Source: Candidatus Oxydemutatoraceae bacterium (GTDB lineage: Bacteria > Pseudomonadota > Gammaproteobacteria > Poriferisulfidales > Oxydemutatoraceae). Taken from it: a stretch of DNA of 64,000 nucleotides. The notes beneath the pieces are model-generated. The model was not told the origin of the DNA. It saw only the letters and a list, made by a program, of their open reading frames with translations, and did no database searches. The stretch is from NCBI GenBank assembly GCA_965219575.1, contig OZ244779.1, positions 1,800,352 through 1,864,351 on the forward strand, read 5' to 3'. Each line of letters begins with the position of its first letter. Within the stretch, counting starts at the first letter, position 1. This document shows, one piece after another, positions 1-53,640 of the stretch. Position numbers and translations under genes: made by a program.

Positions 1-284
1 ACCCCCCATAAGAGCACCTTCTAGGAAAACTTTGGCTCGCACCTTTACATTAGTTGTCGACATATCTATTTGTGCATTTGCCGATAGAGAATACACGCTA
101 GCCGTTATAGCTATAACGCTTAAAAACGACATCCTAATAATCCCCCTGACGTTCTCCTTCTTTTTAGTGTCCATATCCAAAGTTAGTTTTCATGCTATTA
201 CTCTCGCAGATATACTAGGAATTGATACTCTAATGCGATAGTTTACCATGCAATGGTTGTCGCACCGGCATATGAACATAGGTT

Positions 285-3200: not shown

Positions 3201-6200
3201 TGCGCTTGCAATCGTATCGTCGGTGGAGGTGACTTCTACATTCAATGTACTGCCGTCCCTATCGTCCACCGACACCGGCACCATGATTAGCTCTCCCTCC
3301 AACAATGTGATATTGGTGTCTTGGGAGTCATCAACCCTAATCGTCGGTGTCGTGTTTTGTCCCAGCCTCGCACCTAGATTCGACGAGTATACACTCCTCG
3401 TATAGTCTTGCAAGTCGGTATACGCTATCCGCACACGGAACCTGTCGCCTGGGCTTACTTCATGGTCTTGAGGTGCCGATAACGTGGTCGGAACATCGTA
3501 GGAAATCTCAATATCGCCTAAAGTGCCACTCTGCCCGGCAATGTCTTCCCAACCCGAACCGTCACCCTCATCTATCAGACAATTCCTGTTGAGACTTCCT
3601 AGACACTGTTGCCAGTGATAGGTCATAGTTCCGCTCACGCCACCGTCGGTCTCACCCGTCGCATCTATGCCGGTAAAGATTAATATTGTCTCGGTCGTAG
3701 ATCTGGTGAGGTCATTTATCGACACCACGCCATTATCTTCCTTGTTCACCACTATCGCGTACACTCCTGTCGTAGTAGTCGCCCCGTCGCTCACTTCCAC
3801 CACAAAGCTCGCCGTCGCCGTAGTAGCAGTTGCGTCGGTCACAAAGTAGTCGCGAATAGTTAACGGTGCCGTCTCTCCCGACACATCGGCTTCGTCGGCA
3901 TTGATGCTACTCACACGCCAACGATAGCTTAAGTTGTCGAAGTTCTCGTCGGAAGCCTCGGCAGTCATCCTCACCATGCCACCTTCGCTCACCGGTGAAG
4001 GTGCGACATTAACCAGCGTAATCGTCGGTGCAATGTTCGGTACCGTATACACATCGGATTGCGTCGTCACCAATTGTCCGATGTTATCTACAACCGTTGC
4101 CTCCAGCCTATAGCGTGTGCCGGCGGTTCGCGACGGTCTATCGTAGGGGATGCGATATTCATTCTCGGTTGCACCGTCTATCAAAGTGTTGTTAATGAAC
4201 CACCGATAGCTCGTCGACGTAATCCCGTTGGCATCGGCGAGCGTTGAAGTCGTACTCAGCTGCCATCTATCGTCGCTGTCCGGTTCTATGCGTACAGCAC
4301 CGGTCAGCGGGGCATCTACCACTAGTGTGAAGCTCGCCTGCACGCGACCACCTCTGCCGTCATCCGCCGAGACTCTCACGATGGATCCTGCCGCGGTTTG
4401 GCTGGCATCGGCATTGGTTGCCGTGAAGGTCCATACACCGGTCATGGTGCTGAAGTTGCCTATCAAGCCACTCATCGGTTCTATTGCAATATCGTGTGTC
4501 AATGTGTCGCCGTCGGCATCGCTGAAGAAGTCGCTGATATCTCGTTCAAACGGCTCGCCGACCGTTGCGATAATAGCTCGAATCGGCACCCGAGGTGTCG
4601 GTGGAGTATTGACAGCTACCTCCAAAGTACGACTACTGCTTAAATCTGTGCCATCTGTTGCGGTCACTTTGATTTCCGCTATACCCGCTTTGTTCGCTCT
4701 CAGTGCCAAGGTTACACGGGTATCCGACCCGATATCGCCAATCCGCTCCGGCATCACCGATACGATCGTTCGGCTCGACGATGCTGCCGTCAATGTGATA
4801 CGATCGCCGAAGCTAAAATTACCATCCGATACACTAATCACTAGGTGTGCGGTGCTGCCCAGTTGTATCGGCTGTTCAGGTGTGGCAACAATCTCAAGTG
4901 CCGGGGCCACGGTGCCCCCCACCTGCACCGTAAATTGTGCCGAGACCTCCGAGTTCGCTACACCTCTGCCGTCGTTCACCGTCACGGTAATCGTCGTATT
5001 GCCGGCACCGACACCGACAATCTCAAGCGTGCGGACATTACCGGTGGTTGCGATAATCGTTGCGGTTGCAATCATGCTGTCGCTACTATCAATTCTTACA
5101 CTGAGACTATCTTCGGCATCGGCATCGTTTATCGCAATATCAAATTCGGTACTCAAACCTTCCAACAACCTGATGGGTTGCTCGGGAATACCGCTCAGCG
5201 TCGGTGCCGTATTGACACGCACTGGTATTTCTACACTATCGCTTAACCCACCGCGGTCGGTTGCGGTAAATGTGATTGTCGCTTCTCCGCTTCGCTCGGC
5301 ACTAATTATAAAGGTTGTAATCGTATCCGTGGTTATATCGGCAACTTGTGTCGGTGTCACCGAAACAATCGTTCGGCTTGACGACATCGCCTCCAGTGCG
5401 ACGATATCGTCCAAATTGAAGTTATCATCCGCCACCGAGACGAATATATGAGCCGTACTATTGATTGGTAGCGTTTGAGCCGATGACTGTGTAATCATAA
5501 TCGTCGGTGTAGTGTTCGCTTCCCGGGGGCTAATCATATAAATAGTAACCTCGCGATCGGCTTCGGTGACCGTGATGACTAATGCGGTGTTTGCATCTAT
5601 AGGAATAGGCTCGCTTCGCCCGTCGCCACCTTGGTTTGCAAAATAATCGGTATCCTCGCCTTGTCTAACTATTTTGATCGTCGCATCGGTATTATAGGCT
5701 TTTAATCGCAGGGTGATGTCACTAGTCCTAAAAGCAAAAAAACTTACAACATAATGGGCGGTTGTAGCCCCGAAAATTGGGGTCAATCTTGCACCGTGTG
5801 TCAATACTTCTAAATCTCTTAGACCTACGCCTTGACCCGACAACAAAATATCGCTATCCGCAGATTTGAGGATCGGATATTGGATGCTAGTACCGAAATC
5901 CCAGTCGCCGGTACTCCAGCCACTATATATCCCGGTTGCCGTTGTCGGTGATTGCAGTTCCACTAGGGTTTGCGTTGAACTGTTTGTGATAGTAGGAGAA
6001 CCAGAAGAAGAACCGACTAAGGTGTTAAAACCCGTCGCATAGCTATTCGTGATGGAACCACTAAAATACCAACCAACTAATCCGCCTACCCTGCGACCCC
6101 CTGATAAAACAGAACCCGTGGCATAGCTGTTCATGATGGAACCAACAGAATTTAAACCGACTAAACCACCTACATTATTATTTGCTTCAACAGAACCCAT

Positions 6201-9200
6201 CGCATAGCTATTCGTGATAGCACCCTGAGAATTATAACCGACTAAACCGCCTACCTCACTACTCCCTGAAACAGAACTCGTCGCATAGCTGTTCGTGATA
6301 GTGCCTCTATTAAAACCGACTAAACCGCCCACACTACTCCCTGAAACAGAACCCGTCGCATAGCTGTTCGTGATAGTACTACCAATATTCTCACCGACTA
6401 AACTACCTACATTAGAACCCCCAATAATGTCTACATTTAGCAAACCAACATTAGCGATTTCAGCATCACTGTTCGTATAACCAAACAAGCCTATGTTCCT
6501 CGTACCACTTCTGTCAATCCTAAGATTAGAAATCGTAAAACCATTGCCTTCAAACCTGCTTCTGAAAGCATTAGAAGAAGAATCCCCAAGCGGCTGCCAA
6601 CCTGCTCTCGTAGTCCATGTAATCCTATTGACTGTTGAGCTATAGCTGTCATCGTCGTTAAAATCTAAATCTCTCATCAATTCATAGCCCATGCATATAT
6701 CATTAGGACAACCCTCGGTGCTTCCCGTCGCCGTCTCGGCGGTTGCCCTATAGCTCGTGCCGTCCAGTTGAAAGCGGATTGCATTTAAGGTTTCTAAATC
6801 GTTGATATCTATCAGCCCGTTGCCATCGGCATCTACGGCGGTACTCGCTTCCATTGGTGCCGTATTGACCCGCACCAATAATTCTACACTATCGCTTAAC
6901 CCGCCGCTGTCGGTGGCGGTGAATGTGATCGTCGCTTCTCCACCTTTCTCGGCACTAATCATAAAGGTCGTACTCGTATTCGTGGTTATATTAGTAACTT
7001 GCACTGGTGTCACCGAAACAATCGTTCGGCTTGACGACATCGCTTCCAATGCAACTATATCGTCCAAATTGAAGTTATCATCCGCCACCGAGACAACGAT
7101 ATGAGCTGTACTATTGACCGATAGCGTTTGAGCCGATGACGGTGTAATCATAATCGCCGGTGCAATGTTCGCTCCTACTTGAGGGCTAACCATATGAATA
7201 CTAATCATATAAATAGTGGTTCCGGCATCGGCTTCGGTGACCGTAATGACTAATGTAGTGTTTGCGTTTATAGGAATAGGCTCGCTTCGCCCATCACTGC
7301 CCTTGTTTTCAAAATAATCGGTATCCTCGCCTTGTTTAACTACCTTAATCACCGCACCAGCATTATAGGCTTTCAATCGAAGGCTGATGTCGCTCGTCCC
7401 GGAAGCAAGAAAACTTATAACATAATGGGTCGTTGTCGCCCCGAAAATCGGGCTCAATCTTGTACCGGATGTCAATACTTCTAAATCTCTTAGACCTACG
7501 CCTTGACTCGACAACAGAATATCGCTATCTGCAAATTTGAGGATTGGATATTGGATACTAGTACCGAAATCCCAGTCATCGGTACTCCAGTTATAGTATA
7601 TATCACTGGAGGTACTGCTCGTGTCGGTCGCTACTTGCAATTGCTGTGTAGTTGCACCCCTACCACCGGAACTTGTCTGTATTCCGCTGGTACTTATATC
7701 CCAGTAGCTGTTTGTGATTGTGCCGTCATTATCACCAACTAAACCGCCTACACGACCACCTCCTGAAACAGAACCCGTCGCATAGCTGTTCATGATGGTG
7801 CCTCCATTATAACCAACTAAACCGCCGACGGAGAAATTACCACTCGCTGAAACAGAACCCGTCGCATAACTGTTCGTGATTATGCCTTGATTTCGACCGA
7901 CTAAACCGCCTACAATGAAATCTCCAGGAACAGAACCCGTTGCATAGCTGTTCATGATGGTGCCGTCATTCCAACCGACTAAACCGCCTGCATTGCCATC
8001 CCCTGGAACAGAACCCGTCGCATAGCTGTTCATGATGGTGCCATTCAAATTATAACCGACTAAACCGCCTGCATTGCCGTCCCCTGAAACAGAACCCGTC
8101 GCATAGCTATTCGTGATGGTACCGTCATTCCAACCGACTAAACCGCCAGCACTCGCACTATCACTCTCTAAAACAAAACTCGCCGCATAGCTGTTCGTGA
8201 TTGTGCCACCACTATTCCGACCGACTAAACCGCCTGCAGTGCGGGTCCCTGAAACAGAACCCGTCGCATAGCTGTTCGTGATAATACCGTCATTCCAACC
8301 GACTAAACCGCCTACATTGGAAGCACCCATGATATCTACATTTAACAAACCAACATTAGCAATTTCGGCACTACCTCCCGTAGAACCGAACAAACCTATG
8401 TTGCTTGTGCCACTTCTGTCAATCATAAGATTAGAAATCGTGAAACCGTTGCCTTCAAACTGACCGCTGAAAGCATTAGAGAGAGAATTCCCAATCGGCT
8501 GCCAACCGGCTCCCGTAGTCCATATAATTCTGTTGGCTATTGAACTATAGCTGCCATCTTCGTTAAAGTCTAAATCTCTCGTCAATTCATAGCCTCTGCA
8601 TCCGTTATTAGGGCAACCCATCGAAACCTTAGGCACCGTCTCACTCTCTCTATAGCCCGTCCCGTCCAGTTGATAACGCATCGCATTCAGTCTCTCTAAG
8701 TTATCAACCTCTATCAAACCATCGTCATCCCTATCGACATCTCCGTTAAACTCATAATAATTAAGGTAGAGAGTATAAGTAATAGTCTGTGTTGTTTCAC
8801 CACCATTCTCAACCTCAATGGTGATTGTAGTTATCCCGTCTGTGTTTAACGAAATCATACCACTTTCATCACCACTAGCTATGGCTGGACTTCTAGTTTC
8901 TTCATCAGCCGTAATATAAACCTTGGCACCGGGATTTAATGTTATCGGTCTGAATTGTATTGTGCTGGCACTACTAACTACCGTCCCTCTGTAGTTCGGC
9001 ACTACCACATCAAAATCAGGCGACAGATTACCCTCCACTAATTGCAATTCACTCAAACCATATCTAAGTGCAGGCGACAACAAGCTACCGCAGACAGGTA
9101 AATCTGTTGTAGTATCGCCCACACGACGACATTCGCTAATATCTGTGTTAGGATTATCCGTATATTTGAGCACCGGGTATTGGACGCTAGTGCCGAAATC

Positions 9201-10178
9201 CCAGTCATCGGTACTCCAGTTATAGTATATCTCGGCAGAGGTGCTGCCCGGACCAGTTGCTGCTTGCAGTTCTACCGTGGTTTGACTCGTGCCACCGGCA
9301 CTTGTCTCTATTCCACTGCTATTTATATCCCAATAGCTGTTTGTAGTAGTTCCGAAATTACGACCAACTAAACCGCCTACATTATCACCGCTCCCTGAAA
9401 CAGAACTCGTTGCATAGCTGTTCGTGATGATGCCACCATTCTCGCCGACTAAACCGCCTACACCGAAATCTCCTGAAACAGAACCCGTCGCATAGCTGTT
9501 CGTGATGATGCCACCATTCTCGCCGACTAAACCGCCTACACCGAAATCTCCTGAAACAGAACCCGTCGCATAGCTGTTCGTGATGGTGCCTCTATTCTCA
9601 CCGACTAAACCGCCTACACTATTATTTCCTGAAACAGAACCCGTCGCATAGCTGTTCGTGATGGTGCCTCTATTCTCACCAACTAAACCACCTATCTGAT
9701 TTCTCCCTTCAACAGAACCCGTCGCATAGCTGTTCGTGATGGTGCCTCTATTCTCACCGACTAAACCGCCTACCCTATCGCTAAAACCTCCTATTATATT
9801 TACATTTAATAAACCCAGATTAGCAATTTCAGCACTACTTCCCGTATGACCAAACAAGCCTATTTCACTCGTGTCACTTCTGTCAATCCTAAGATTAGAA
9901 ATCGTAAAAACGTTGCCTTCAAACTTGCCTCTGAAAGCATTAGAAGAATCCCCAATCGGCTGCCAACCTGCTCCCGTAGTCCATGTAATCCTATTAGCTA
10001 TAGAACCATAACTGCCAGCGTCGTTAAAGTCTAAATCTCTCGTCAGTTCATAGCCTCTGCATCCGTCATTAGGGCAACCTGTCACAACTTTAGGTGCCGC
10101 CTCGCTCTCTCTATAGCCCGTCCCGTCCGGTTGATAACGTATCGCATTCAGTCCCTCTAAATCATCAATCTCTATCAA
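285..10178 (-). CDS. Giant repetitive surface/adhesin protein, 3' (C-terminal) portion. It was cut off from its 5' portion by an IS insertion. It contains dockerin-like Ca-binding segments, GLUG-type GGLVG Gly-rich repeats, cadherin-like beta-sandwich domains and about 12 tandem Ig-like domains. This fragment has no signal peptide of its own.
   Basis: 3297-aa ORF. It has repeated DxDGNGLIDINDLExLNAIRYQxDG segments and many VGGLVGxNxGTITNSYATGSVSG units. LSPALRYGL...TYTLYL domains match the cadherin-like beta-sandwich pattern. A ~202-aa module at the C-terminus is repeated five times nearly identically. The upstream frame continues without interruption into the IS target duplication at 10219-10226. 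Confidence 0.85.
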   Translation of the reverse strand: MIEIDDLEGLNAIRYQPDGTGYRESEAAPKVVTGCPNDGCRGYELTRDLDFNDAGSYGSIANRITWTTGAGWQPIGDSSNAFRGKFEGNVFTISNLRIDRSDTSEIGLFGHTGSSAEIANLGLLNVNIIGGFSDRVGGLVGENRGTITNSYATGSVEGRNQIGGLVGENRGTITNSYATGSVSGNNSVGGLVGENRGTITNSYATGSVSGDFGVGGLVGENGGIITNSYATGSVSGDFGVGGLVGENGGIITNSYATSSVSGSGDNVGGLVGRNFGTTTNSYWDINSSGIETSAGGTSQTTVELQAATGPGSTSAEIYYNWSTDDWDFGTSVQYPVLKYTDNPNTDISECRRVGDTTTDLPVCGSLLSPALRYGLSELQLVEGNLSPDFDVVVPNYRGTVVSSASTIQFRPITLNPGAKVYITADEETRSPAIASGDESGMISLNTDGITTITIEVENGGETTQTITYTLYLNYYEFNGDVDRDDDGLIEVDNLERLNAMRYQLDGTGYRESETVPKVSMGCPNNGCRGYELTRDLDFNEDGSYSSIANRIIWTTGAGWQPIGNSLSNAFSGQFEGNGFTISNLMIDRSGTSNIGLFGSTGGSAEIANVGLLNVDIMGASNVGGLVGWNDGIITNSYATGSVSGTRTAGGLVGRNSGGTITNSYAASFVLESDSASAGGLVGWNDGTITNSYATGSVSGDGNAGGLVGYNLNGTIMNSYATGSVPGDGNAGGLVGWNDGTIMNSYATGSVPGDFIVGGLVGRNQGIITNSYATGSVSASGNFSVGGLVGYNGGTIMNSYATGSVSGGGRVGGLVGDNDGTITNSYWDISTSGIQTSSGGRGATTQQLQVATDTSSTSSDIYYNWSTDDWDFGTSIQYPILKFADSDILLSSQGVGLRDLEVLTSGTRLSPIFGATTTHYVISFLASGTSDISLRLKAYNAGAVIKVVKQGEDTDYFENKGSDGRSEPIPINANTTLVITVTEADAGTTIYMISIHMVSPQVGANIAPAIMITPSSAQTLSVNSTAHIVVSVADDNFNLDDIVALEAMSSSRTIVSVTPVQVTNITTNTSTTFMISAEKGGEATITFTATDSGGLSDSVELLVRVNTAPMEASTAVDADGNGLIDINDLETLNAIRFQLDGTSYRATAETATGSTEGCPNDICMGYELMRDLDFNDDDSYSSTVNRITWTTRAGWQPLGDSSSNAFRSRFEGNGFTISNLRIDRSGTRNIGLFGYTNSDAEIANVGLLNVDIIGGSNVGSLVGENIGSTITNSYATGSVSGSSVGGLVGFNRGTITNSYATSSVSGSSEVGGLVGYNSQGAITNSYAMGSVEANNNVGGLVGLNSVGSIMNSYATGSVLSGGRRVGGLVGWYFSGSITNSYATGFNTLVGSSSGSPTITNSSTQTLVELQSPTTATGIYSGWSTGDWDFGTSIQYPILKSADSDILLSGQGVGLRDLEVLTHGARLTPIFGATTAHYVVSFFAFRTSDITLRLKAYNTDATIKIVRQGEDTDYFANQGGDGRSEPIPIDANTALVITVTEADREVTIYMISPREANTTPTIMITQSSAQTLPINSTAHIFVSVADDNFNLDDIVALEAMSSSRTIVSVTPTQVADITTDTITTFIISAERSGEATITFTATDRGGLSDSVEIPVRVNTAPTLSGIPEQPIRLLEGLSTEFDIAINDADAEDSLSVRIDSSDSMIATATIIATTGNVRTLEIVGVGAGNTTITVTVNDGRGVANSEVSAQFTVQVGGTVAPALEIVATPEQPIQLGSTAHLVISVSDGNFSFGDRITLTAASSSRTIVSVMPERIGDIGSDTRVTLALRANKAGIAEIKVTATDGTDLSSSRTLEVAVNTPPTPRVPIRAIIATVGEPFERDISDFFSDADGDTLTHDIAIEPMSGLIGNFSTMTGVWTFTATNADASQTAAGSIVRVSADDGRGGRVQASFTLVVDAPLTGAVRIEPDSDDRWQLSTTSTLADANGITSTSYRWFINNTLIDGATENEYRIPYDRPSRTAGTRYRLEATVVDNIGQLVTTQSDVYTVPNIAPTITLVNVAPSPVSEGGMVRMTAEASDENFDNLSYRWRVSSINADEADVSGETAPLTIRDYFVTDATATTATASFVVEVSDGATTTTGVYAIVVNKEDNGVVSINDLTRSTTETILIFTGIDATGETDGGVSGTMTYHWQQCLGSLNRNCLIDEGDGSGWEDIAGQSGTLGDIEISYDVPTTLSAPQDHEVSPGDRFRVRIAYTDLQDYTRSVYSSNLGARLGQNTTPTIRVDDSQDTNITLLEGELIMVPVSVDDRDGSTLNVEVTSTDDTIASAMISGDGTTRMLTISGERAGETMITATVDDGTGEANATASLVFDVTVEENTVPTLLLAPSSALTLPVNSTTDTIVSVADSNFDLDDVVTLTAVSSTPSVVSVMPARIADITTDTSVRFVLNAEQGGEATIRFTATDRNSLSAHAELAVRVNTAPTLSGIPEQPIRLLEGLSTEFDVAINDADADDNLNVRIDTSDSMIATATIIATDDATRTLEVVGVGEGEATIKVTVDDGRGVANSRISEQFEVQVEANTTPTIMITPSTAQTLPINSTAAIVVSVADDNFNLDDIVTLEAMSSSRTIVSVTSTQTGGITTDTSRTFRISAEQGGEATITFTATDIGGLSDSVELAVRVNTAPTLSGIPEQPIRLLEGLSTELSVAVNDADADDSPSIRIDTGDSMIASATIIATNDATRTLEVSGVGAGRAVITVTVNDDRGVANSEVSAQFEVRVEANTTPTIMITPSSAQTLPVNSTTDTIVSVTDSNFDLNDIVTLAAMSSSRTIVSVTPVQVANITTDTSRTFRISAEQGGEATITFTATDIGGLSDSIELAVRVNTAPTLSGIPEQPIRLLEGLSTELSVAVNDADADDSLNVRIDTSDSMIATATIIATDDATRTLEVSGVGEGEATITVTVNDGRSVANSEVSAEFEVQVEANTTPTIMITPSSAQTLPVNTTTDTIVSVTDSNFDLNDIVALAAMSSSQTIISVTPAQVTDITTDTITTFRISAEQGGEATITFTATDRGGLSDSVELVVRVNTAPTLSGIPEQPIRLLEGLSTEFDVAINDADADDSLSVRINTGDSMIATATIIATDDATRTLEVSGVGAGRAVITVTVNDDRGVANSEVSAQFEVRVEANTTPTIMITPSSAQTLPVNSAAQIAVLVADDNFNLDDIVTLEAMSSSRTIVSVTPVQAADITTDTITTFVISAEQEGEATITFTATDSGGLSDSETVSVDVTASAIRIRAKVFLEGPLQ
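290..3400. repeat. Near-identical tandem DNA repeats, period about 606 bp and about 5 copies, inside the giant adhesin gene. More diverged copies continue to about 5500.
   Basis: Antisense ORFs at 666-959, 1257-1562 and 1872-2165 are near-identical and spaced about 606 bp apart. The protein shows 5 copies of a 202-aa unit. Confidence 0.8.
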
Positions 10179-10226: not shown

Positions 10227-10979
10227 GGTACTTGACTAGTTTAGGGACAAAATCCCACTCAAATATCCCTTACCATCTTCATTAGCATATCATACTTTTG
10301 GGAGGCTGAAAGGTGCCTGTGATTGAATCGCCACTCGCATTCTTTTAGATGAAGATGGAAATGTTTTCTCGACACGCCGCAGAACTTTGTTAATCTCCTT
10401 TTTGCCCATCCCCAAAAGTTTTCAATGCCATTGATATGTCTAGTACCACTGCCCAGTGTCTTTGAATGATTGATGCGGTAGTGTTTGTATCCATTCAACA
10501 CCAACCCGCCATAAGCTCTCCATTTGTCTGTGTATATAGTACTCTGATGTCCCACTAAACGCTTGATAATAGGTCGTATCCCGCTCTTTGAAGCATTTCG
10601 TATCACCTGCGTATAGACCTTCCCATCTCTTTTTAATATGCCGAATACCGGTACTTTGTTCGGTGCACCTCTACCTCTTTTGTCTCCCTTTTTGCGACCA
10701 CCGAAGTAGGACTCATCCAACTCTACCTCGCCGGAGAATACGCTCGTCTTCTCGCAGTGTTGTGCAATTCTTTCTCGGATTATATTGACATATCTATTCA
10801 CTGTATTTCTATTGACCCCGGCTGCTTGTGCGATTTGGGTTGCACTCAAATCAAGGGCAAAATACCTTACAATTTGCCTTATTTTCCTGTTTGAAATATG
10901 TGCCCCTCTAAAATGCCTGTTAGGTGTTGTCATTACTAGTTATTTTATCAAATCGTACTCCCTAAACTAGTCAAGTACC
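10227..10979 (-). mobile_element. IS1595-family insertion sequence, 753 bp. It has perfect 21-bp terminal inverted repeats GGTACTTGACTAGTTTAGGGA. An 8-bp target-site duplication TAATTAAG lies at 10219-10226 and 10980-10987.
   Basis: The inverted repeats were read directly at 10227-10247 and 10959-10979. The flanking 8-mer is identical on both sides. The single internal ORF is an IS1595-type transposase. Confidence 0.9.
10259..10933 (-). CDS. IS1595-family (ISXO2-like) transposase
   Basis: 224-aa protein with an N-terminal HTH region (ATQIAQAAGVNRNTVNRY). It carries the characteristic YTDKWRAYGGL and INGIENFWGWAKRRL motifs of IS1595 transposases. Confidence 0.85.
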   Translation of the reverse strand: MTTPNRHFRGAHISNRKIRQIVRYFALDLSATQIAQAAGVNRNTVNRYVNIIRERIAQHCEKTSVFSGEVELDESYFGGRKKGDKRGRGAPNKVPVFGILKRDGKVYTQVIRNASKSGIRPIIKRLVGHQSTIYTDKWRAYGGLVLNGYKHYRINHSKTLGSGTRHINGIENFWGWAKRRLTKFCGVSRKHFHLHLKECEWRFNHRHLSASQKYDMLMKMVRDI

Positions 10980-20146: not shown

Positions 20147-20228
20147 TTTATTGCCCCGACTTGTCTGCCGATTGCAGAATGTTAAATCTGCCGCTACAGA
20201 TACCTAGTATACACACCCGCTATAACCA

Positions 20229-20253
20229 TTCGTCGGATATTTGCTACCGCTCA
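20229..20253 (+). promoter_or_regulatory. Conserved 25-nt motif TTCGTCGGAWATTTGCTACCGYTCA, copy 1 of 2. It lies 94 nt upstream of the 20348 start codon.
   Basis: Identical apart from two positions to 21259-21283. That copy lies 96 nt upstream of the 21380 start. Confidence 0.5.
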
Positions 20254-20347
20254 TTGAATTTAGTAAAGCCACATATTTCGAAAAAGGATACCCTGTGACT
20301 GATTTGCTATAAGGCATCAATTTACATATAATTCAGAGGAGAAGACA

Positions 20348-20575
20348 ATGAACACAGTAATATCGTTATTAGAAAAAATCCCCGGTGCCTCTAATGAGGA
20401 AGTTTTAGAGGTTGCTACCAAATTGCGCAGAACCGATGATTTGGTAGCTCATAAAGATTTAGAAACGATCATAGCGAAACTAGAAGCACGACTGATCAAG
20501 CAGATGTATGCTGTGGGCGGAGTAACCGTTGCAATAACGCTCACAGGTGTCGGATTGATGATCCAGTTTTTATGA
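20348..20575 (+). CDS. DUF1640-like small membrane protein with a coiled-coil region and a C-terminal TM helix
   Basis: 75 aa. The C-terminus is hydrophobic (AVGGVTVAITLTGVGLMIQFL). It resembles the neighbouring DUF1640 paralogs. Confidence 0.5.
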   Translation: MNTVISLLEKIPGASNEEVLEVATKLRRTDDLVAHKDLETIIAKLEARLIKQMYAVGGVTVAITLTGVGLMIQFL

Positions 20576-20585
20576 TGAAGCAATA

Positions 20586-20745
20586 CCATAGAACCGCCGA
20601 TTGAGCCAGTAGGTCAATCGGCAATACAAAGCCGCCGATTGAGCCAGTAGGTCAATCGGCAATACAAAGCCGCCGATTGAGCCAGTAGGTCAATCGGCAA
20701 TTATGATGTGCGCCCGATAGGTTGATCGGCGTTACATTGTTCAGG
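20586..20745. repeat. Tandem array of three perfect 38-bp module-A palindromic units plus one degenerate unit (REP-like)
   Basis: acaaagccgccgattgagccagtaggtcaatcggcaat appears three times, then gcgcccgataggttgatcggcg. Confidence 0.85.
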
Positions 20746-20759
20746 ACTACGATAATAAT

Positions 20760-21074
20760 TTAACCCATGCGTAACAACGCGATGATGACACCGGTAAAAC
20801 CGGCACCTATAACACATATAGCCACAATGCTTTCTACATATAGCCACGATAATCTTCTCTCAACTATACCGATATGCTTTTCAACTATACCTATACGCCT
20901 CTCAACGGCATCAAAACGAGCGTCTATTTTATCAAGGACTTCTTGCATTGACATCGATACTTGTCGGTCAATCGCACGCGCCGTTATCTCCGCTTGCGTT
21001 CTCGACATTCCTGCTTGTTCCAATTCGTGCATCGTGTTAAAAGTCTCCGTGCTTCGGTTGATCGTTGTATTCAT
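20760..21074 (-). CDS. DUF1640 family protein
   Basis: 104 aa. The FNTMHELEQAGMSRTQAE motif is shared with the 53231-53491 paralog. It has a C-terminal TM helix. Confidence 0.65.
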   Translation of the reverse strand: MNTTINRSTETFNTMHELEQAGMSRTQAEITARAIDRQVSMSMQEVLDKIDARFDAVERRIGIVEKHIGIVERRLSWLYVESIVAICVIGAGFTGVIIALLRMG

Positions 21075-21076
21075 TT

Positions 21077-21215
21077 TTACTCCTTTGAATTATATGTTAA
21101 TCAATGCCCTAGAGCAAACTAAGGGATAGCCTATCTCACCCTGTAGCACGATTTTCCTAATTTTGATGAACAGCCCTAAATACCCGACGAACGGTTTTAT
21201 ATAAAGGGAATGTAG
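21077..21215 (-). promoter_or_regulatory. Diverged copy of the ~145-nt upstream element E (see 53495-53640)
   Basis: ctcctttgaatta...cccgacgaacggttttatataaaggg aligns with the 5' and 3' parts of the other two copies. Confidence 0.45.
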
Positions 21216-21258
21216 GACATAGGGGTTACTTTACGGTTTTAACAACCTAAAAGTAGCT

Positions 21259-21283
21259 TTCGTCGGAAATTTGCTACCGTTCA
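21259..21283 (+). promoter_or_regulatory. Conserved 25-nt motif, copy 2 of 2
   Basis: Same motif as at 20229-20253, at the same distance from the start codon. Confidence 0.5.
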
Positions 21284-21379
21284 CCGGAAATATAACAAAG
21301 TACTTCTTTTATAGGTCAAAATCGGACTAATCTTTGTTATTCAAGTTTATAAGTCAAACGATTAGGAGGAATTATTAAC

Positions 21380-23485
21380 ATGATGGAAACTTTCAGATCT
21401 AAAACAGATACTATCATCGAGGTACCGCAAGATTGGGTTGCTTTGTATGTAAAAGAGAATCCCGAAGCTATGGAGATATTAAACACGCATAAAATCTATA
21501 ACGATGTTTCATATCTCAATGCCGAGCGTGGATTAGATCCGATTACTCGACAAAAACTGAGCATATTTAGGATACGCCATTTAGCCGATAAAAACCGCAG
21601 AAACCCGTGTGCGATTGCCCGCGCCGCATCGCCGTGGTGGGCGAAACAAAGACTGACCAGCACAAATACCACGCTTAGAATCTATAAAGTTTTGCAAACA
21701 AAGAATATACAAACAGTTGAAGATCTAGCCGCTTGGACAACCGAAAAATTGCACGAGCAAACACCTTTCGGCTACAAAACTTTATACAACCTCTGCATTT
21801 TCTTAAATAAAATCATCGGCGATAATCCGATAGCCGACAAAAAACAAACTCGGGATGGTGATATTGACGACGCGCTTATACGCGACGCAATAGCCGAACC
21901 GGACAAACTCAAACAGCTGATGAAAATACTGCACTACACAGATAACTGCAAAGATCCGTGTAAGTTGGCGCGTTTGGCTCTACCGTGGTTGGGCAAATGG
22001 AAGCTGATAGACACAAACTTTCCCAAAGCACCTATAGAAGTTATGAGGAGAGACGGTATCGAAACAATCTCGGATCTTGCAACATGCTCCCCGGAAAGAT
22101 TACTCGGCAAGAGAATGTTCGGGCGTAAGTCTCTGCACATTATTCTAAATTGCTTAAATACCGCACTGCTCGGAAAGCTAATATCCGATATAGATTATCC
22201 GGCAAATGTCGATTTGATACCGAACTCGAAGGTCTCTATACACCTTAGGCTCGGCTTCATTGAAAATCTAAGATGTTTTTTGTCTTCGCTCTATCCCGTT
22301 GATCTCTATATTTTTACGCGTCGGACGGCATTTGAAGCTACATTTCAAACTATACAAAAAATTTCGGATACCTGCGGCAAGTCGATCGTATATGTCACTT
22401 TAAGCCAAGCTGCGATGATAAAGAATTTTAGGAATTCTCTCTTAGGGCATATCTTCAGGCAAAAAATCATACGGCTATCGGAGGAGGCCGATTTTCCATT
22501 GTCTTTAGATCAAATAGAAACTATGGATCTATGGTTCAGCGGCATCCACTCGCATCGAACATTTTTCGGAAATCTAATCGGCGCAGTGAATGAGCGCGGT
22601 ATACGCGTCGTTAAAATCGGCAACAAATATTATCTCGGTTCGATTGAGCAGTTGGTTTGGAAGCGTACCGTAGAGGCGGCGAAAGCATTATTATCTTCGT
22701 CCGTAGACAAAGGGTGGAGTGAGACCGAAGCCTTTTTACGGGTGCAAAGATTGTTGCCCGACGGTGCCAAGCAATTCAAAAATCTATTGTGGGATTATGC
22801 CTCCGATTTATGCTACTTTAAAATTAATCCCGACGGTACGCGCACATTGATAGACTACGGGAAAGGACTGCACAAAACTATCAAAGTAATCCTTTCCGAA
22901 TCCGATTCGCCGATGCACTACGATGAAATCATCAAGGCGATAAAACTTAAGCTGGGGCTAAATCTGACTATGCTACAAGTATGTCCGGCGGCAAATAGTG
23001 TCGGTCTTGCCTTTAGAAAGGGGCTGTACGGTCTTGACAAACATATACCTTTCTCCGACAAACAGATTGCTCGTATCTGTCGTGCAGCCGAATCTATCGT
23101 CTACGCCGATAGGGCAAAAAAGCAGTGGCATTGTTTTGAAATACTCTCTAAATTGCCGGAACAAGCCGATGAGACCTTCGACAAGTTAGATATCCGTTTG
23201 CTAAACATCGTGCTTTCTAAATCCCGGAGATTGAGCTATCTTAACAGAATGGTCTGGACAACGACCGAAGGTTACAACAAAGGAGAAAAACGTCTGAACA
23301 AAACTCAAGCAATCATCGCTATGATCAAAAATGCCGGACATCCGTTGACGGGAAGCGAAATCAAAGCGCGATTACAAAAAGTAACCGGTGTCAATAAAAT
23401 TTTGCATATACCGAAGCATCCGTCTTTAATTCGCATCGCACCCGGTGTTTGGGATGTTAAGGACAAGGATGTACCGAATAGTTAG
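21380..23485 (+). CDS. Hypothetical 701-aa protein with two tandem RpoA alphaCTD-like helix-hairpin-helix modules and two or three HARE-HTH-like winged-helix modules
   Basis: Two ~80-aa modules (CAIARAASPWWAKQRL...NIQTVEDLAAWTTEKL...FGYKTLYNL and CKLARLALPWLGKWKL...GIETISDLATCSPERLL...FGRKSLHIIL) follow the alphaCTD pattern of RpoA. The C-terminal segments ...GHPLTGSEIKARLQKV...LIRIAPGVWDV and ...MHYDEIIKAI...AFRKGLYGL follow the HARE-HTH pattern. Confidence 0.7.
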   Translation: MMETFRSKTDTIIEVPQDWVALYVKENPEAMEILNTHKIYNDVSYLNAERGLDPITRQKLSIFRIRHLADKNRRNPCAIARAASPWWAKQRLTSTNTTLRIYKVLQTKNIQTVEDLAAWTTEKLHEQTPFGYKTLYNLCIFLNKIIGDNPIADKKQTRDGDIDDALIRDAIAEPDKLKQLMKILHYTDNCKDPCKLARLALPWLGKWKLIDTNFPKAPIEVMRRDGIETISDLATCSPERLLGKRMFGRKSLHIILNCLNTALLGKLISDIDYPANVDLIPNSKVSIHLRLGFIENLRCFLSSLYPVDLYIFTRRTAFEATFQTIQKISDTCGKSIVYVTLSQAAMIKNFRNSLLGHIFRQKIIRLSEEADFPLSLDQIETMDLWFSGIHSHRTFFGNLIGAVNERGIRVVKIGNKYYLGSIEQLVWKRTVEAAKALLSSSVDKGWSETEAFLRVQRLLPDGAKQFKNLLWDYASDLCYFKINPDGTRTLIDYGKGLHKTIKVILSESDSPMHYDEIIKAIKLKLGLNLTMLQVCPAANSVGLAFRKGLYGLDKHIPFSDKQIARICRAAESIVYADRAKKQWHCFEILSKLPEQADETFDKLDIRLLNIVLSKSRRLSYLNRMVWTTTEGYNKGEKRLNKTQAIIAMIKNAGHPLTGSEIKARLQKVTGVNKILHIPKHPSLIRIAPGVWDVKDKDVPNS

Positions 23486-30850: not shown

Positions 30851-31936
30851 CTAGGTAAACACATTATTCTTGCAAAGATATTCGCTCATTCTCGCTTGAC
30901 ATTCTGCTAACCGCTTTCTTGAGAGCTCACAGTAAGTGGAATCTATATCAATACCTAGATAATGGCAATCCTCTTCCATAGCGGCAATAGCCGTTGTGCC
31001 GCTCCCGCTATACGGGTCCAGAACGATGCCGTTCTTCGGTGAAAGCAGTTTTATAATTTCTTTGATAATTGAAAGAGGAAATATAGCACTGTGTTTATTT
31101 CCGGGAATTGATTCAACCGACGAAATAATCACATCCTTTTTCATTTTCTTTCCATGTATTTTAATAATAGTGTAACCGTTCTTCTCGATCTGGCTTTTAC
31201 GCCCCCCTTCTTGCCCTCCGAAAGCCTCTGCGTGTATTCCGCGAATCTTCATACGAAATCCCTCTATTTTAGATTCTTTTACTTCTTCAGTAACCTCGTC
31301 GAGAGATTTATGCGCTTTTCTTTTCAGCTCCGAAGATAAATCCGAATTTTCAATCAATGTCCTATATCTTTCTCCTAATCTATTTGAAGGCTTATGCCGT
31401 TTTCTTTCGTCTACCTCGTTAAAAAATTTATCGGGGTTGTAATAATATTTTGTACCTTTTACAAAATGAAAAAATGGTTCCGTGCTACTTACCAGACGCC
31501 GCCCGAATTGCCTCGGTGTGGGGTTTCTCTTTACCCAAGTTATTTCATTGACAAGCTTCACACTATGGTCATTAGTTGCTTTTATGGCAAATCTATACGG
31601 CACAAGTAAAAGCGAACCATTCAGATATTTATCACCGATGTTATAAACGATATTTCCCGAAGGTTTTACTACTCTGACAATTTCCGAAAATACTTCAAGT
31701 AGAGAGTCAATATAAGACTCAACCGTTTTTTCGTGACCGGTCCCGATTCCCATTCCGTTATAATTTCGTTGCATATAGTACGGTGGGGATGTCACCACTA
31801 AATCAATACTATTATCCGGTAACTGCTTCAGCAAAAAAGCGGCATCTCCACACTGTATTGAATCTATTAGGCAATTCATCCGGCTTTTATGTGAAAGACC
31901 CTTTTGGGATTTTTCTAATTCTATAAAAGAACTCAT
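30851..31936 (-). CDS. Beta-class amino-DNA methyltransferase (N6-adenine or N4-cytosine). It appears to be an orphan.
   Basis: Motif IV VTSPPYY lies near the N-terminus. Motif I VLDPYSGSGTT lies near the C-terminus. GC content is low. No restriction endonuclease ORF is adjacent. Confidence 0.8.
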   Translation of the reverse strand: MSSFIELEKSQKGLSHKSRMNCLIDSIQCGDAAFLLKQLPDNSIDLVVTSPPYYMQRNYNGMGIGTGHEKTVESYIDSLLEVFSEIVRVVKPSGNIVYNIGDKYLNGSLLLVPYRFAIKATNDHSVKLVNEITWVKRNPTPRQFGRRLVSSTEPFFHFVKGTKYYYNPDKFFNEVDERKRHKPSNRLGERYRTLIENSDLSSELKRKAHKSLDEVTEEVKESKIEGFRMKIRGIHAEAFGGQEGGRKSQIEKNGYTIIKIHGKKMKKDVIISSVESIPGNKHSAIFPLSIIKEIIKLLSPKNGIVLDPYSGSGTTAIAAMEEDCHYLGIDIDSTYCELSRKRLAECQARMSEYLCKNNVFT

Positions 31937-32004: not shown

Positions 32005-32160
32005 CACCATTTTCTCCCATTGATTAAAAATTGTAAATAGTTCTTGTGCACACAATCTCGCAATATTAGCCGATATCAAAGCCCAAGAATTCATTATCCG
32101 ATGAACGGTTGTATTTGAGTATATAAAAGGTGCTCGACGGTTGGATTATGCAGTAATACG
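32005..32160 (-). promoter_or_regulatory. Upstream element E, copy A. It lies 5' of the methyltransferase gene.
   Basis: About 85% identical over about 145 nt to 53495-53640. It contains a gtgcac-centred palindrome. Confidence 0.5.
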
Positions 32161-53230: not shown

Positions 53231-53491
53231 TTATTTTATCGATAACAATGCAAACATAATGCCGACCAGACTAACAATGATGCCGGCAAAACCAATGCCG
53301 ATAATGGTGTTTGCAATGATATTATCTTTTTTAATTTGGTCCAATTTTTCGAGTACCAACTGAATACCATTCGATACTTGGCTATCAACCGCACGCGCAG
53401 TGGTCTCGGCTTGAACTCGTGACATGCCTGCTTGTTCCAGTTTATGCATAGTATTGAACACCTCTTCGCTTGAATTAAATGGCTTAGACAT
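53231..53491 (-). CDS. DUF1640 family protein (paralog of 20760-21074)
   Basis: FNTMHKLEQAGMSRVQAE plus a C-terminal TM helix. Confidence 0.65.
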   Translation of the reverse strand: MSKPFNSSEEVFNTMHKLEQAGMSRVQAETTARAVDSQVSNGIQLVLEKLDQIKKDNIIANTIIGIGFAGIIVSLVGIMFALLSIK

Positions 53492-53494
53492 TAT

Positions 53495-53640
53495 TATCTC
53501 CTATTGCTTAAAAATTGTAAATAGTGCGTGCGCACGCGACCTTATTCGCAATATTAGCCGATATGAAAACCCGAGAATTCGTTATCCGACGAACGGTCGT
53601 ATTTTGGTATATAAAAGGTATCCGACGGTTGGGTTGTACT
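53495..53640 (-). promoter_or_regulatory. Upstream element E, copy B. It starts 4 nt from the DUF1640 start codon, and its first bases supply the RBS (aggaga). It contains a perfect 12-bp palindrome GCGTGCGCACGC.
   Basis: Aligned by eye with 32005-32160 (about 85% identity) and with 21077-21215. Confidence 0.55.

What the first reader, a model, noticed from the sequence alone, without database searches (positions are those of the whole stretch)
20229..21283. Identical 25-nt motif at the same distance upstream of two adjacent plus-strand genes
TTCGTCGGATATTTGCTACCGCTCA at 20229-20253 ends 94 nt before the 20348 start codon. TTCGTCGGAAATTTGCTACCGTTCA at 21259-21283 ends 96 nt before the 21380 start codon. 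Conserved spacing argues for a transcription-factor site or promoter element. It would co-regulate the small DUF1640-like protein and the 701-aa alphaCTD/HARE-HTH protein.
Basis: seen in the sequence. Interest (0 to 1): 0.5.

Follow-up and report, generated by a model that had tools for sequence, protein, structure and literature searches.

The report
Tandem AlgR-type regulator boxes upstream of genes
The repeated 25-base motif is a real, conserved regulatory DNA site: two 9-base boxes 12 bases apart, matching the known binding sites of LytTR/AlgR-type response regulators. It marks a small set of co-regulated genes in a sponge-symbiont bacterium.

Summary
They are 23/25 identical and lie 94 and 96 nt before the start codons. 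They are far beyond chance.

They are part of a larger set. A third, inverted copy precedes the minus-strand 104-aa gene. Single boxes precede an 86-aa paralogue and a DNA methyltransferase.

Each full copy parses as CCGTTCGTC-N12-CCGTTCATC. The 9-mer equals the experimentally defined Pseudomonas AlgR box. The 9+12+9 direct-repeat geometry is the hallmark of LytTR-family response regulators.

The site is conserved upstream of all fetched orthologues of the 701-aa gene, down to 49% protein identity. It also precedes many paralogous small membrane coiled-coil genes and a ComEA-like gene in related 'Ca. Porisulfidus' genomes. No RNA structure is supported.

The same box pair, with a sharp preference for the 12-nt spacer, is common in unrelated phage and metagenome contigs. 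That points to a conserved host factor, not the rare 701-aa protein.

The regulator gene was not found in any sequence I could reach. Binding and the direction of regulation are therefore inferred. This is a new member of a known kind.

The parts
20226..20255 (+). Tandem box pair, copy 1: R1 CCATTCGTC (20226-20234), 12-nt spacer GGATATTTGCTA, R2 CCGCTCATT (20247-20255).
20266..20294 (+). Candidate activator-dependent promoter P1: weak -35 AAGCCA starting 10 nt after R2, 17-nt spacer, -10-like TACCCT. Inferred only.
   Evidence: geometry as
20304..20332 (+). Near-consensus sigma-70-type promoter P2 (TTGCTA-N17-TATAAT) just before the ribosome-binding site. Its -35 overlaps a TTGC-N6-GCA(A/T) palindrome.
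20348..20575 (+). 75-aa small protein with a C-terminal membrane helix (type A; distant relative of the MATKADIKD-repeat proteins).
21165..21194 (-).
21128..21133 (-). -10-like TAGGCT, 31 nt after R2. The same hexamer sits at a nearly equal distance in distant type-B genes, where it is preceded by TTGACT-N16.
21089..21117 (-). P2 of the 104-aa gene: TTGCTC-N17-TATAAT.
   Evidence: (I2)
20760..21074 (-). 104-aa small protein (type B): N-terminal helix FNTMHELEQAGMSRTQAE, coiled coil, C-terminal membrane helix. 62 relatives found, several per genome.
21256..21285 (+). Tandem box pair, copy 3: R1 GCTTTCGTC (21256-21264), spacer GGAAATTTGCTA, R2 CCGTTCACC (21277-21285).
21292..21322 (+). Candidate P1 of the 701-aa gene: ATAACA-N19-CAAAAT. 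CAAAAT/CATAAT lies 31-32 nt after R2 in all 10 orthologous upstream regions.
21380..23485 (+). 701-aa protein (likely start 21383): two RNA-polymerase alpha-CTD-like helix-hairpin-helix domains, a helical middle, and C-terminal tandem winged-helix-like domains. The family is very rare.
53588..53596 (-). Single perfect box CCGTTCGTC, 96 nt before the ATG of the 86-aa gene. There is no recognisable second box 12 nt downstream.
53231..53491 (-). 86-aa paralogue of the 104-aa protein (65% identity over 51 aa, E 2e-22).
32100..32108 (-). Single box CCGTTCATC in a roughly 120-nt module homologous to the one at 53596. It lies upstream of a 25-aa remnant ORF (32010-31933) and the 361-aa DNA methyltransferase gene (30851-31936, minus strand).

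Best explanation
The 25-mer is the core of a 30-bp binding site for a LytTR-family response regulator of the AlgR type. It consists of two 9-bp direct repeats (consensus CCGTTCGTC / CCGTTCATC) separated by exactly 12 bp, so both boxes face the same side of the helix. A phosphorylated regulator dimer would bind the two boxes cooperatively and bend the DNA. It would then help RNA polymerase at a weak promoter that begins 6-13 bp downstream of the second box (P1). That places the transcription start about 45 nt after the 25-mer and leaves a leader of roughly 50 nt. In the small genes this leader also carries a second, near-consensus promoter (P2). The fixed promoter geometry plus the inherited leader explains the constant distance of about 94 nt to the start codon. 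The site defines a small regulon in this 'Ca. Porisulfidus'-like sponge symbiont. Its members are a multi-copy family of small membrane-anchored coiled-coil proteins, the 701-aa alpha-CTD/winged-helix protein, a ComEA-like DNA-binding protein and, via single boxes, a further paralogue and a DNA methyltransferase. Shown here: the sequence, its geometry, its conservation, its orientation, the set of downstream genes and the absence of RNA structure. Inferred: the identity of the binding protein, activation rather than repression, and use of P1.
For: (1) All 28 sites examined parse as 9 + 12 + 9 nt.
(2) The 9-mer equals the AlgR core CCGTTCGTC. That core was defined by footprints at algD, algC and rhlA and by ChIP-seq, and CCGTTCATC is the footprinted czcR site.
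(3) LytTR regulators bind two 9-bp tandem repeats with a 12-bp spacer directly upstream of the -35, 4-11 bp away and mostly 10 bp.
(4) In an unbiased scan of phage contigs for ACCGTTCGTC-N{4,24}-ACCGTTCRTC, 68 of 95 distinct occurrences have the 11-nt gap, which equals a 12-nt core spacer. No other gap has more than 9.
(5) Downstream of box 2 in those sites, TTG is enriched at +10..12, and the best -35 offset peaks at 9-10 nt. The same layout is seen in relatives: DR2-N10-TTGACT-N16-TAGGCT in L024 and DR2-N9-TTTACA-N16-TAATAT in L014.
(6) The site is conserved upstream of every fetched 701-aa orthologue, including those at 49-56% identity that lack the small genes.
(7) In three Porisulfidus genomes, further copies lie 95-105 nt before paralogous small genes and 72 nt before a ComEA-like gene. 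Each gene of the tandem type-B arrays also carries a copy.
(8) Second boxes of the small-gene copies (ACCGCTCA, ACCGCTTA, ACCACTCA) equal the E. coli YehT/BtsR half-sites present in the published yjiY oligonucleotide, with the same 21-bp register.
(9) The site occurs in contigs of 38-70% G+C with unrelated flanking genes, which argues for a widely conserved host factor.
Against: No LytTR or any response-regulator gene was found in the window. None was found in the Porisulfidus-clade loci or the phage and metagenome contigs examined (tblastn and HMM; Pfam tables). Whole Porisulfidus genomes could not be scanned, so the presence of the regulator is unverified. In P. aeruginosa itself, AlgR boxes are often single and far from the promoter rather than paired at 12 bp. 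The P1 promoters in the window copies have poor -35 elements, and the scoring used to find them is permissive. The strong TATAAT promoter P2 lies about 50 nt further downstream, so the boxes could instead act from about -100 on P2. R1 of the 701-aa gene copy (GCTTTCGTC) lacks the CC that is essential for AlgR binding at mucR. Two window copies have only one box.
Confidence: 0.6

Rival explanations
1. The boxes are the operator of a different DNA-binding protein specific to this lineage, most plausibly the 701-aa alpha-CTD/winged-helix protein. That protein would then autoregulate and control the small genes.
For: The site precedes the 701-aa gene in every orthologue. The protein has helix-hairpin-helix and winged-helix-like domains. 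Protein family and full motif co-occur in the same clade.
Against: The same box pair is found in Psychrobacter-type contigs, K189A/TMED92 genomes, and dozens of phage and metagenome contigs of 38-70% G+C. The 701-aa family has only 11 members among 5.8 billion proteins. The box is identical to a site already assigned to AlgR.
Confidence: 0.1
2. The boxes act as a repressor or architectural site, or as a far-upstream enhancer-like site on the strong TATAAT promoter P2 (centred near -100), rather than on a promoter immediately downstream. The protein family is the same but the mechanism differs.
For: P2 is near-consensus and conserved in all small genes. AlgR sites at algD and algC work from a distance and in either orientation, and AlgR represses rhlA. 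In phage contigs, many sites have a TTGAC on the opposite strand abutting box 1.
Against: In the 701-aa genes, the conserved -10-like hexamer keeps its distance to the boxes while the distance to the ATG varies from 81 to 132 nt. Several relatives have well-formed promoters at the canonical 9-10 nt after box 2.
Confidence: 0.15
3. The repeat is only a relic of gene duplication (paralogous upstream regions copied with their genes) and has no function of its own.
For: The 75-aa and 104-aa genes have homologous upstream regions over about 120 nt. Tandem arrays of paralogues carry near-identical upstream modules.
Against: The motif also precedes unrelated genes: the 701-aa gene, the ComEA-like gene and the methyltransferase. 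It is the most conserved block, while the DNA between it and P2 has diverged. It persists at 49% protein identity. It matches sites in unrelated organisms.
Confidence: 0.03
4. The element is a structured RNA leader, or a mobile-element, iteron or recombination site.
For: The motif lies within about 100 nt of start codons. One phage-like contig has three boxes in register next to two DnaA boxes. Copies 1 and 2 are inverted around the two small genes.
Against: RNAalifold finds no structure and no compensatory changes in 14 small-gene and 10 large-gene upstream regions. Rfam gives no match. The sites sit at conserved chromosomal positions with fixed orientation towards the downstream gene.
Confidence: 0.04

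Closest known systems
AlgR-binding sites (ABS) of Pseudomonas aeruginosa (FimS/AlgZ-AlgR two-component system)
   Same: The 9-bp core is identical. CCGTTCGTC is the core at algD RB1/RB2, algC ABS1 and rhlA and is the ChIP-seq motif. CCGTTCATC is the czcR footprint. Both are gammaproteobacterial.
   Different: In P. aeruginosa the boxes are often single, far upstream or inside genes, and in either orientation; they are 'not necessarily' direct repeats 12 bp apart. Here they are strictly paired at 12 bp and oriented towards the gene. The target genes also differ: small coiled-coil membrane proteins, an alpha-CTD protein and ComEA, rather than alginate or minor-pilin genes. No AlgR orthologue has been demonstrated in this organism.
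Canonical LytTR-family sites (AgrA, ComE, PlnC/PlnD, VirR, HdrR/BrsR)
   Same: Two imperfect 9-bp direct repeats, a 12-bp spacer, and a position a few bp (typically 10) upstream of the -35 of an activator-dependent promoter. One repeat is often weaker than the other, and the spacer is conserved within functional groups.
   Different: The box sequence differs (for example TACGTTAAT for PlnC/D). Those systems are mostly from Firmicutes and usually autoregulate an adjacent regulator operon. Here no regulator gene is adjacent.
YehT/BtsR site of the E. coli yjiY (btsT) promoter
   Same: The half-sites ACCGCTTA and ACCACTCA in the published oligonucleotide lie 21 bp apart. The same 8-mers occur as box 2 of the small-gene copies. 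YehT/BtsR is a LytTR regulator of gammaproteobacteria.
   Different: Box 1 here is AlgR-like, not BtsR-like. The target genes are unrelated to pyruvate transport. The consensus ACC[G/A]CT[C/T]A with a 13-bp spacer is recalled from memory of Kraxenberger et al. 2012 and was not read here.

Membership tests
LytTR-family response-regulator binding site | Two imperfect direct repeats of 8-13 bp | tested here: met
   All 28 sites parse as two 9-mers of the same sequence family. Definition.
LytTR-family response-regulator binding site | Spacer of about 12 bp, with exact spacing critical | tested here: met
   The spacer is 12 nt in every Porisulfidus-clade site. In phage contigs, 68 of 95 box pairs have this spacing and no other spacing has more than 9.
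LytTR-family response-regulator binding site | Repeats lie directly upstream (4-11 bp, mostly 10) of the -35 of the regulated promoter | tested here: inconclusive
   Clear in L024 (N10-TTGACT-N16-TAGGCT), in L014 (N9-TTTACA-N16-TAATAT) and as a peak at 9-10 nt in phage sites. The window copies have only weak -35 candidates. No start-site data are available.
LytTR-family response-regulator binding site | A LytTR-domain regulator is encoded in the genome | not testable with these tools
   None was found in the 64-kb window or in the fetched loci. Complete genomes could not be scanned. The AlgR query returned only Pseudomonas proteins.
LytTR-family response-regulator binding site | Sequence-specific binding by the regulator and box-dependent transcription | not testable with these tools
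   Needs EMSA or footprinting and reporter assays.
AlgR box (P. aeruginosa type) | 9-bp core CCGTTCGTC, with limited variants such as CCGTTCATC, CCGTTTGTC and CCGTTGGTC | tested here: met
   Box 1 of copy 2 and the box at 53596 are perfect. CCGTTCATC, CCGTTTGTC and CCGTTCGTC recur as box 2. Consensus.
AlgR box (P. aeruginosa type) | Regulon includes type IV pilus minor-pilin or alginate genes | not tested
   No such genes occur in the window or the fetched loci. The nearest functional link is a ComEA-like gene.
Sigma-54 promoter | GG and GC elements 12 nt apart (TGGCAC-N5-TTGC) | tested here: not met
   In the motif, GG and GC are 8 nt apart (read directly).
Structured RNA leader or riboswitch | Conserved secondary structure with compensatory changes, or a match to a known RNA family | tested here: not met
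   Consensus energies are -4.5 and -1.9 kcal/mol with no supporting covariation. No Rfam match.
DUF1640 / CCDC90-like (the small proteins) | Pfam PF07798 match above the gathering score | tested here: not met
   104-aa protein: E 0.03, 14.6 bits against a cut-off of 33.5. 75-aa protein: no match. The resemblance is in architecture and in the [aliphatic]-A-T-K-x-[DE] beta-layer motif.

The most novel reading that the evidence does not exclude
A strictly phased pair of AlgR-type boxes (9+12+9) is a portable promoter module read by a conserved proteobacterial LytTR regulator. Many phages and mobile elements have adopted it. In sponge symbionts it controls a rapidly expanding, repeat-length-variable family of membrane-anchored alpha/beta-coiled-coil proteins, together with a unique protein built from RNA-polymerase alpha-CTD-like domains. 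This would be a surface- or DNA-uptake-related programme with no described counterpart.
Probability: 0.25. Interest if true: 0.7.

Novelty: new member of a known kind. Interest (0 to 1): 0.5.

Why it matters
It gives a concrete, testable regulatory link for a set of otherwise uncharacterised genes in an uncultured sponge symbiont. These are a multi-copy family of small membrane coiled-coil proteins, a very rare protein carrying two RNA-polymerase alpha-CTD-like domains, and a ComEA-like protein. It also suggests that AlgR-type regulators use the canonical LytTR paired-box geometry outside Pseudomonas. Finally, the same module is widespread in phage genomes, which would tie phage gene expression to a host surface-sensing two-component system. 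The site can be tested directly with P. aeruginosa AlgR and existing algR mutants.

Tried and rejected
- **Sigma-54 promoter:** the GG/GC spacing is wrong (8 nt rather than 12).
- **T4 MotA-box-like TTTGCT and KorA-like TTTAGCTA in the spacer:** these bases vary among copies, so the idea was dropped.
- **ECF-sigma promoter on the reverse strand (GAAC-N16-CGAA):** its orientation is opposite to all downstream genes, including the same-direction tandem arrays.
- **RNA structure:** none found.
- **Palindromic operator reading of the 25-mer:** only CGG...CCG pairs, and this is lost in copy 2.
- **Link to the 38-nt tandem repeats at 20594-20707:** they are a separate dispersed REP-like hairpin.
- **Search for the regulator.** Pfam on 20 window ORFs, tblastn and HMM with AlgR on all fetched DNA, a protein search with AlgR (Pseudomonas only) and two further neighbourhood look-ups all found no LytTR gene.
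- **BLAST of the 34-mer against GenBank phages and PLSDB plasmids:** nothing useful.
- **BLAST of a phage-contig region to find its host:** only a radC match.
- **Structure of the 701-aa protein:** moderate confidence (pLDDT 66.7) and no significant PDB match (best E 0.012), so no function could be assigned.
- **Gene family encoded next to the boxes in phage contigs:** none recurs.

Full report
**Observation**

The two 25-mers are at the stated coordinates, 20229-20253 and 21259-21283, both on the plus strand. They are 23/25 identical. They end 94 and 96 nt before the ATGs at 20348 and 21380. No dinucleotide-preserving shuffle of the window gave a match at up to 3 mismatches.

- A third full copy lies on the minus strand (25-mer 21191-21167, 18/25 identical). 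It ends 92 nt before the ATG of the convergent 104-aa gene, 20760-21074.
- A perfect single box lies at 53596-53588 (-), 96 nt before an 86-aa ORF (53231-53491). That ORF is a clear paralogue of the 104-aa protein (65% identity, E 2e-22).
- A single box lies at 32108-32100 (-), inside a roughly 120-nt module homologous to the previous one. It is upstream of a 25-aa remnant ORF and a 361-aa DNA methyltransferase.

**Setting**

The locus lies between the fhc genes of the tetrahydromethanopterin pathway, an ion-channel gene and a conserved 91-aa gene on one side. On the other side are asnB, nnr, tsaE and amiC.

The 701-aa protein has only 11 relatives among 5.8 billion proteins. All fetched relatives sit in syntenic or related loci from sponge metagenome assemblies. 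A genome scan places the full motif in three 'Candidatus Porisulfidus' MAGs. This genus is a sponge-symbiont gammaproteobacterium and has been used as the outgroup to SUP05. The window is therefore most likely from a Porisulfidus-like symbiont; this is an inference.

**Conservation**

The motif is present upstream of every fetched 701-aa orthologue. That includes the orthologues at 49-56% protein identity, where the small genes are absent and the neighbouring genes differ. In alignments of 14 small-gene and 10 large-gene upstream regions it is the best-conserved block.

In the three Porisulfidus genomes, additional copies lie 95-105 nt before other small paralogous genes. These encode proteins of 99-193 aa with MATKADIKD nonad repeats and a C-terminal membrane helix. 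One copy lies 72 nt before a secreted ComEA-like helix-hairpin-helix protein.

In more distant relatives, every gene of tandem arrays of type-B genes carries its own copy, 95-96 nt upstream. A degenerate pair precedes a further paralogue.

A weight matrix built only from non-window sites picks out exactly the three full window copies, at 38-49 bits. The maximum in 20 shuffled windows was 16.

**Anatomy**

Extending the 25-mer by 3 nt upstream and 2 nt downstream shows two 9-nt direct repeats separated by exactly 12 nt, a 21-bp period. The consensus is CCGTTCGTC-GGATATTTGCTA-CCGTTCATC.

The window copies are:

| Copy | Box 1 | Box 2 |
|---|---|---|
| 1 | CCATTCGTC | CCGCTCATT |
| 2 | CCGTTCGTC | CTGTTCATC |
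| 3 | GCTTTCGTC | CCGTTCACC |

RNAalifold finds no conserved structure or compensatory change. Rfam finds nothing in the window. The element therefore works as DNA.

**Comparison with known sites**

CCGTTCGTC is the experimentally defined core of AlgR-binding sites in P. aeruginosa. It was established by footprints at algD RB1/RB2, algC ABS1 and rhlA and by the ChIP-seq motif. CCGTTCATC is the footprinted czcR site, and CCGTTTGTC is algD RB3.

AlgR is a LytTR-family response regulator. The family hallmark is two imperfect direct repeats about 12 bp apart, with the exact spacing critical. For PlnC/D the site is two 9-bp repeats plus a 12-bp spacer directly upstream of -35 and -10. For the LytTR systems, the repeats lie 4-11 bp, mostly 10 bp, upstream of the -35.

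Box 2 of several small-gene copies (ACCGCTCA, ACCGCTTA, ACCACTCA) is identical to the half-sites in the published E. coli YehT/BtsR oligonucleotide. Those half-sites also lie 21 bp apart.

**Independent test of the geometry**

I scanned IMG/VR for ACCGTTCGTC-N{4,24}-ACCGTTCRTC, which leaves the spacer free. This gave 102 stretches, against roughly five expected by chance on my own rough estimate from pattern complexity and an assumed collection size.

Of 95 distinct occurrences, 68 have the 11-nt gap, which equals a 12-nt spacer between 9-mer cores. The next most frequent gaps have 9 and 7 occurrences. The contigs range from 39 to 70% G+C.

After box 2, GG follows in 56-57 of 67 sites. TTG is enriched at +10..12. 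The best sigma-70-type -35 offset peaks at 9-10 nt.

A metagenome scan gave 22 stretches. Nearly all had the unforced flanks TACCG...TCGG. Contexts included the ftsX-rpoH intergenic region of a high-G+C bacterium and several phage- or ICE-like contigs.

The ORFs flanking the phage sites are unrelated to each other; the largest cluster holds 4 of 115. The binding factor is therefore not encoded next to the site. A conserved host factor is the economical explanation. This also makes the very rare 701-aa protein an unlikely binder.

**Promoters**

The small genes have a conserved near-consensus promoter, P2, next to the ribosome-binding site. It is TTGCTA-N17-TATAAT at 20304-20332 and TTGCTC-N17-TATAAT at 21117-21089. 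Its -35 overlaps a TTGC-N6-GCA(A/T) palindrome.

Between the boxes and P2 lies a second candidate promoter, P1, in the LytTR position:
- In the 701-aa genes, CAAAAT/CATAAT lies 31-32 nt after box 2 in all ten orthologues. The distance to the ATG varies from 81 to 132 nt because of insertions further downstream.
- In relatives, P1 is well formed: N10-TTGACT-N16-TAGGCT in L024 and N9-TTTACA-N16-TAATAT in L014.
- In the window copies, the -35 of P1 is poor. This is expected for an activator-dependent promoter, but it is weak evidence by itself.

The constant distance of about 94 nt to the ATG therefore reflects fixed box-promoter geometry plus an inherited leader of about 50 nt.

**What remains unproven**

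I could not show that the organism encodes a LytTR regulator. None is in the window, in the fetched Porisulfidus-clade DNA or in the phage and metagenome contigs examined. The only protein search possible with AlgR returned Pseudomonas sequences. Binding, activation versus repression, and the use of P1 versus P2 are all inferences.

In P. aeruginosa, AlgR boxes are often single and distant. The strictly paired arrangement here is thus more 'canonical LytTR' than the model organism's own sites.

**The gene products**

The 701-aa protein has two alpha-CTD-like domains (Pfam 45 bits, cut-off 23.8). The AlphaFold model (pLDDT 66.7) shows a helical middle and tandem winged-helix-like domains. PDB similarities are weak: SelB C-terminal winged helices at E 0.012, and an alpha-CTD chain with target TM-score 0.83. 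The HARE-HTH and WH_Rok matches are below threshold.

The small proteins do not reach the DUF1640 threshold. They do share its architecture. Type-A members carry 2-16 KDMATKADI nonads. This is the beta-layer motif of alpha/beta coiled coils described for Tcar0761 and DUF1640.

**Verdict**

The site can be named more precisely as a paired AlgR-type / LytTR-type response-regulator site that defines a small regulon. It is a new member of a known kind. The wide occurrence of the same strictly phased module in phage contigs is the most unexpected by-product and deserves its own follow-up.

Noticed in passing
window 20594-20707, and 13286, 30569, 30804, 32187, 36553, 36715, 43194, 43281, 46938: The 27-nt hairpin GCCGATTGAGCCAGTAGGTCAATCGGC is a dispersed REP-like repeat with 12 copies in the window. 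Three are tandem 38-nt units between the two convergent small genes. It is also present in related loci.
   Followed up: partly
L009, L010, L011, L014, L016, L019 (small genes downstream of the boxes): Type-A small proteins carry 2-16 copies of the nonad KDMATKADI, and the number differs between orthologues (99-193 aa). This is the beta-layer motif of alpha/beta coiled coils, which suggests repeat-length-variable membrane-anchored fibres.
   Followed up: partly
L024 7674-11226; L025 9147-13490: Tandem arrays of 3-5 type-B genes, each with its own box pair, carry variable ERFDVMN-type repeats. They lie directly upstream of a giant ORF (more than 9,700-11,800 aa). In L025 they are interrupted by a Dam-like methyltransferase.
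   Followed up: partly
window 20303-20316 and 21118-21105; same position in L001, L004, L010, L014, L016, L020: A TTGC-N6-GCA(A/T) palindrome overlaps the -35 of the TATAAT promoter of the small genes. It may be the operator of a second, unknown regulator. It is not conserved in the L024/L025 arrays.
   Followed up: partly
window 21380-23485: The 701-aa protein family has only 11 members in 5.8 billion proteins. It combines two RNA-polymerase alpha-CTD-like domains with tandem winged-helix-like domains. Orthologues start at the second ATG (21383).
   Followed up: partly
IMG/VR loci L054-L153 (viral contigs): 68 distinct pairs of ACCGTTCGTC boxes with exactly an 11-nt gap occur in phage contigs of 39-70% G+C with unrelated flanking genes. 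Many also have a TTGAC on the opposite strand abutting box 1.
   Followed up: partly
L052 826-3423; also L034, L036, L045, L050, L073, L096: Phage-like contigs carry 2-4 copies of a module on the strand opposite to the genes. The module is a box pair, N10, TTGGCACGCTTTTTGCC (a sigma-54 look-alike or a TGGCA-N7-TGCCA palindrome), then a roughly 90-nt conserved segment ending in a GCGGCGGCCTCCGCCGC hairpin. These may be small RNA genes.
   Followed up: no
L047, oriented positions about -45 to +30 around the match; also L054, L106, L149: In L047, three boxes in 21-nt register lie directly after two DnaA boxes (TGTGGATAA). DnaA boxes lie near box pairs in three other phage contigs.
   Followed up: no
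L017 6862-6894 (also L039, L051): Psychrobacter-type contigs have a perfect box pair between a two-component system and an ORF about 220 nt away on the other strand. That ORF's N-terminus and Gly/Ala-rich repeats look like a trimeric autotransporter adhesin (read by eye; not checked against Pfam).
   Followed up: partly
L027 and L030 (viral contigs, 58% G+C), about 10 nt downstream of the box pair: The box pairs are followed by the palindrome AAAAGTGCAATTGCACTTTT, CCCCAA-type simple repeats, a 67-aa membrane protein and a RadC-like gene. The L030 25-mer is 25/25 identical to window copy 3; the L027 25-mer differs at one base. The upstream DNA has inverted CATCGTCCGATGTCAAGGT repeats.
   Followed up: partly
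window 10259-10933 (-) and 285-10178 (-): An IS1595-type transposase gene lies next to a 3297-aa ORF. Neither was examined further.
   Followed up: no
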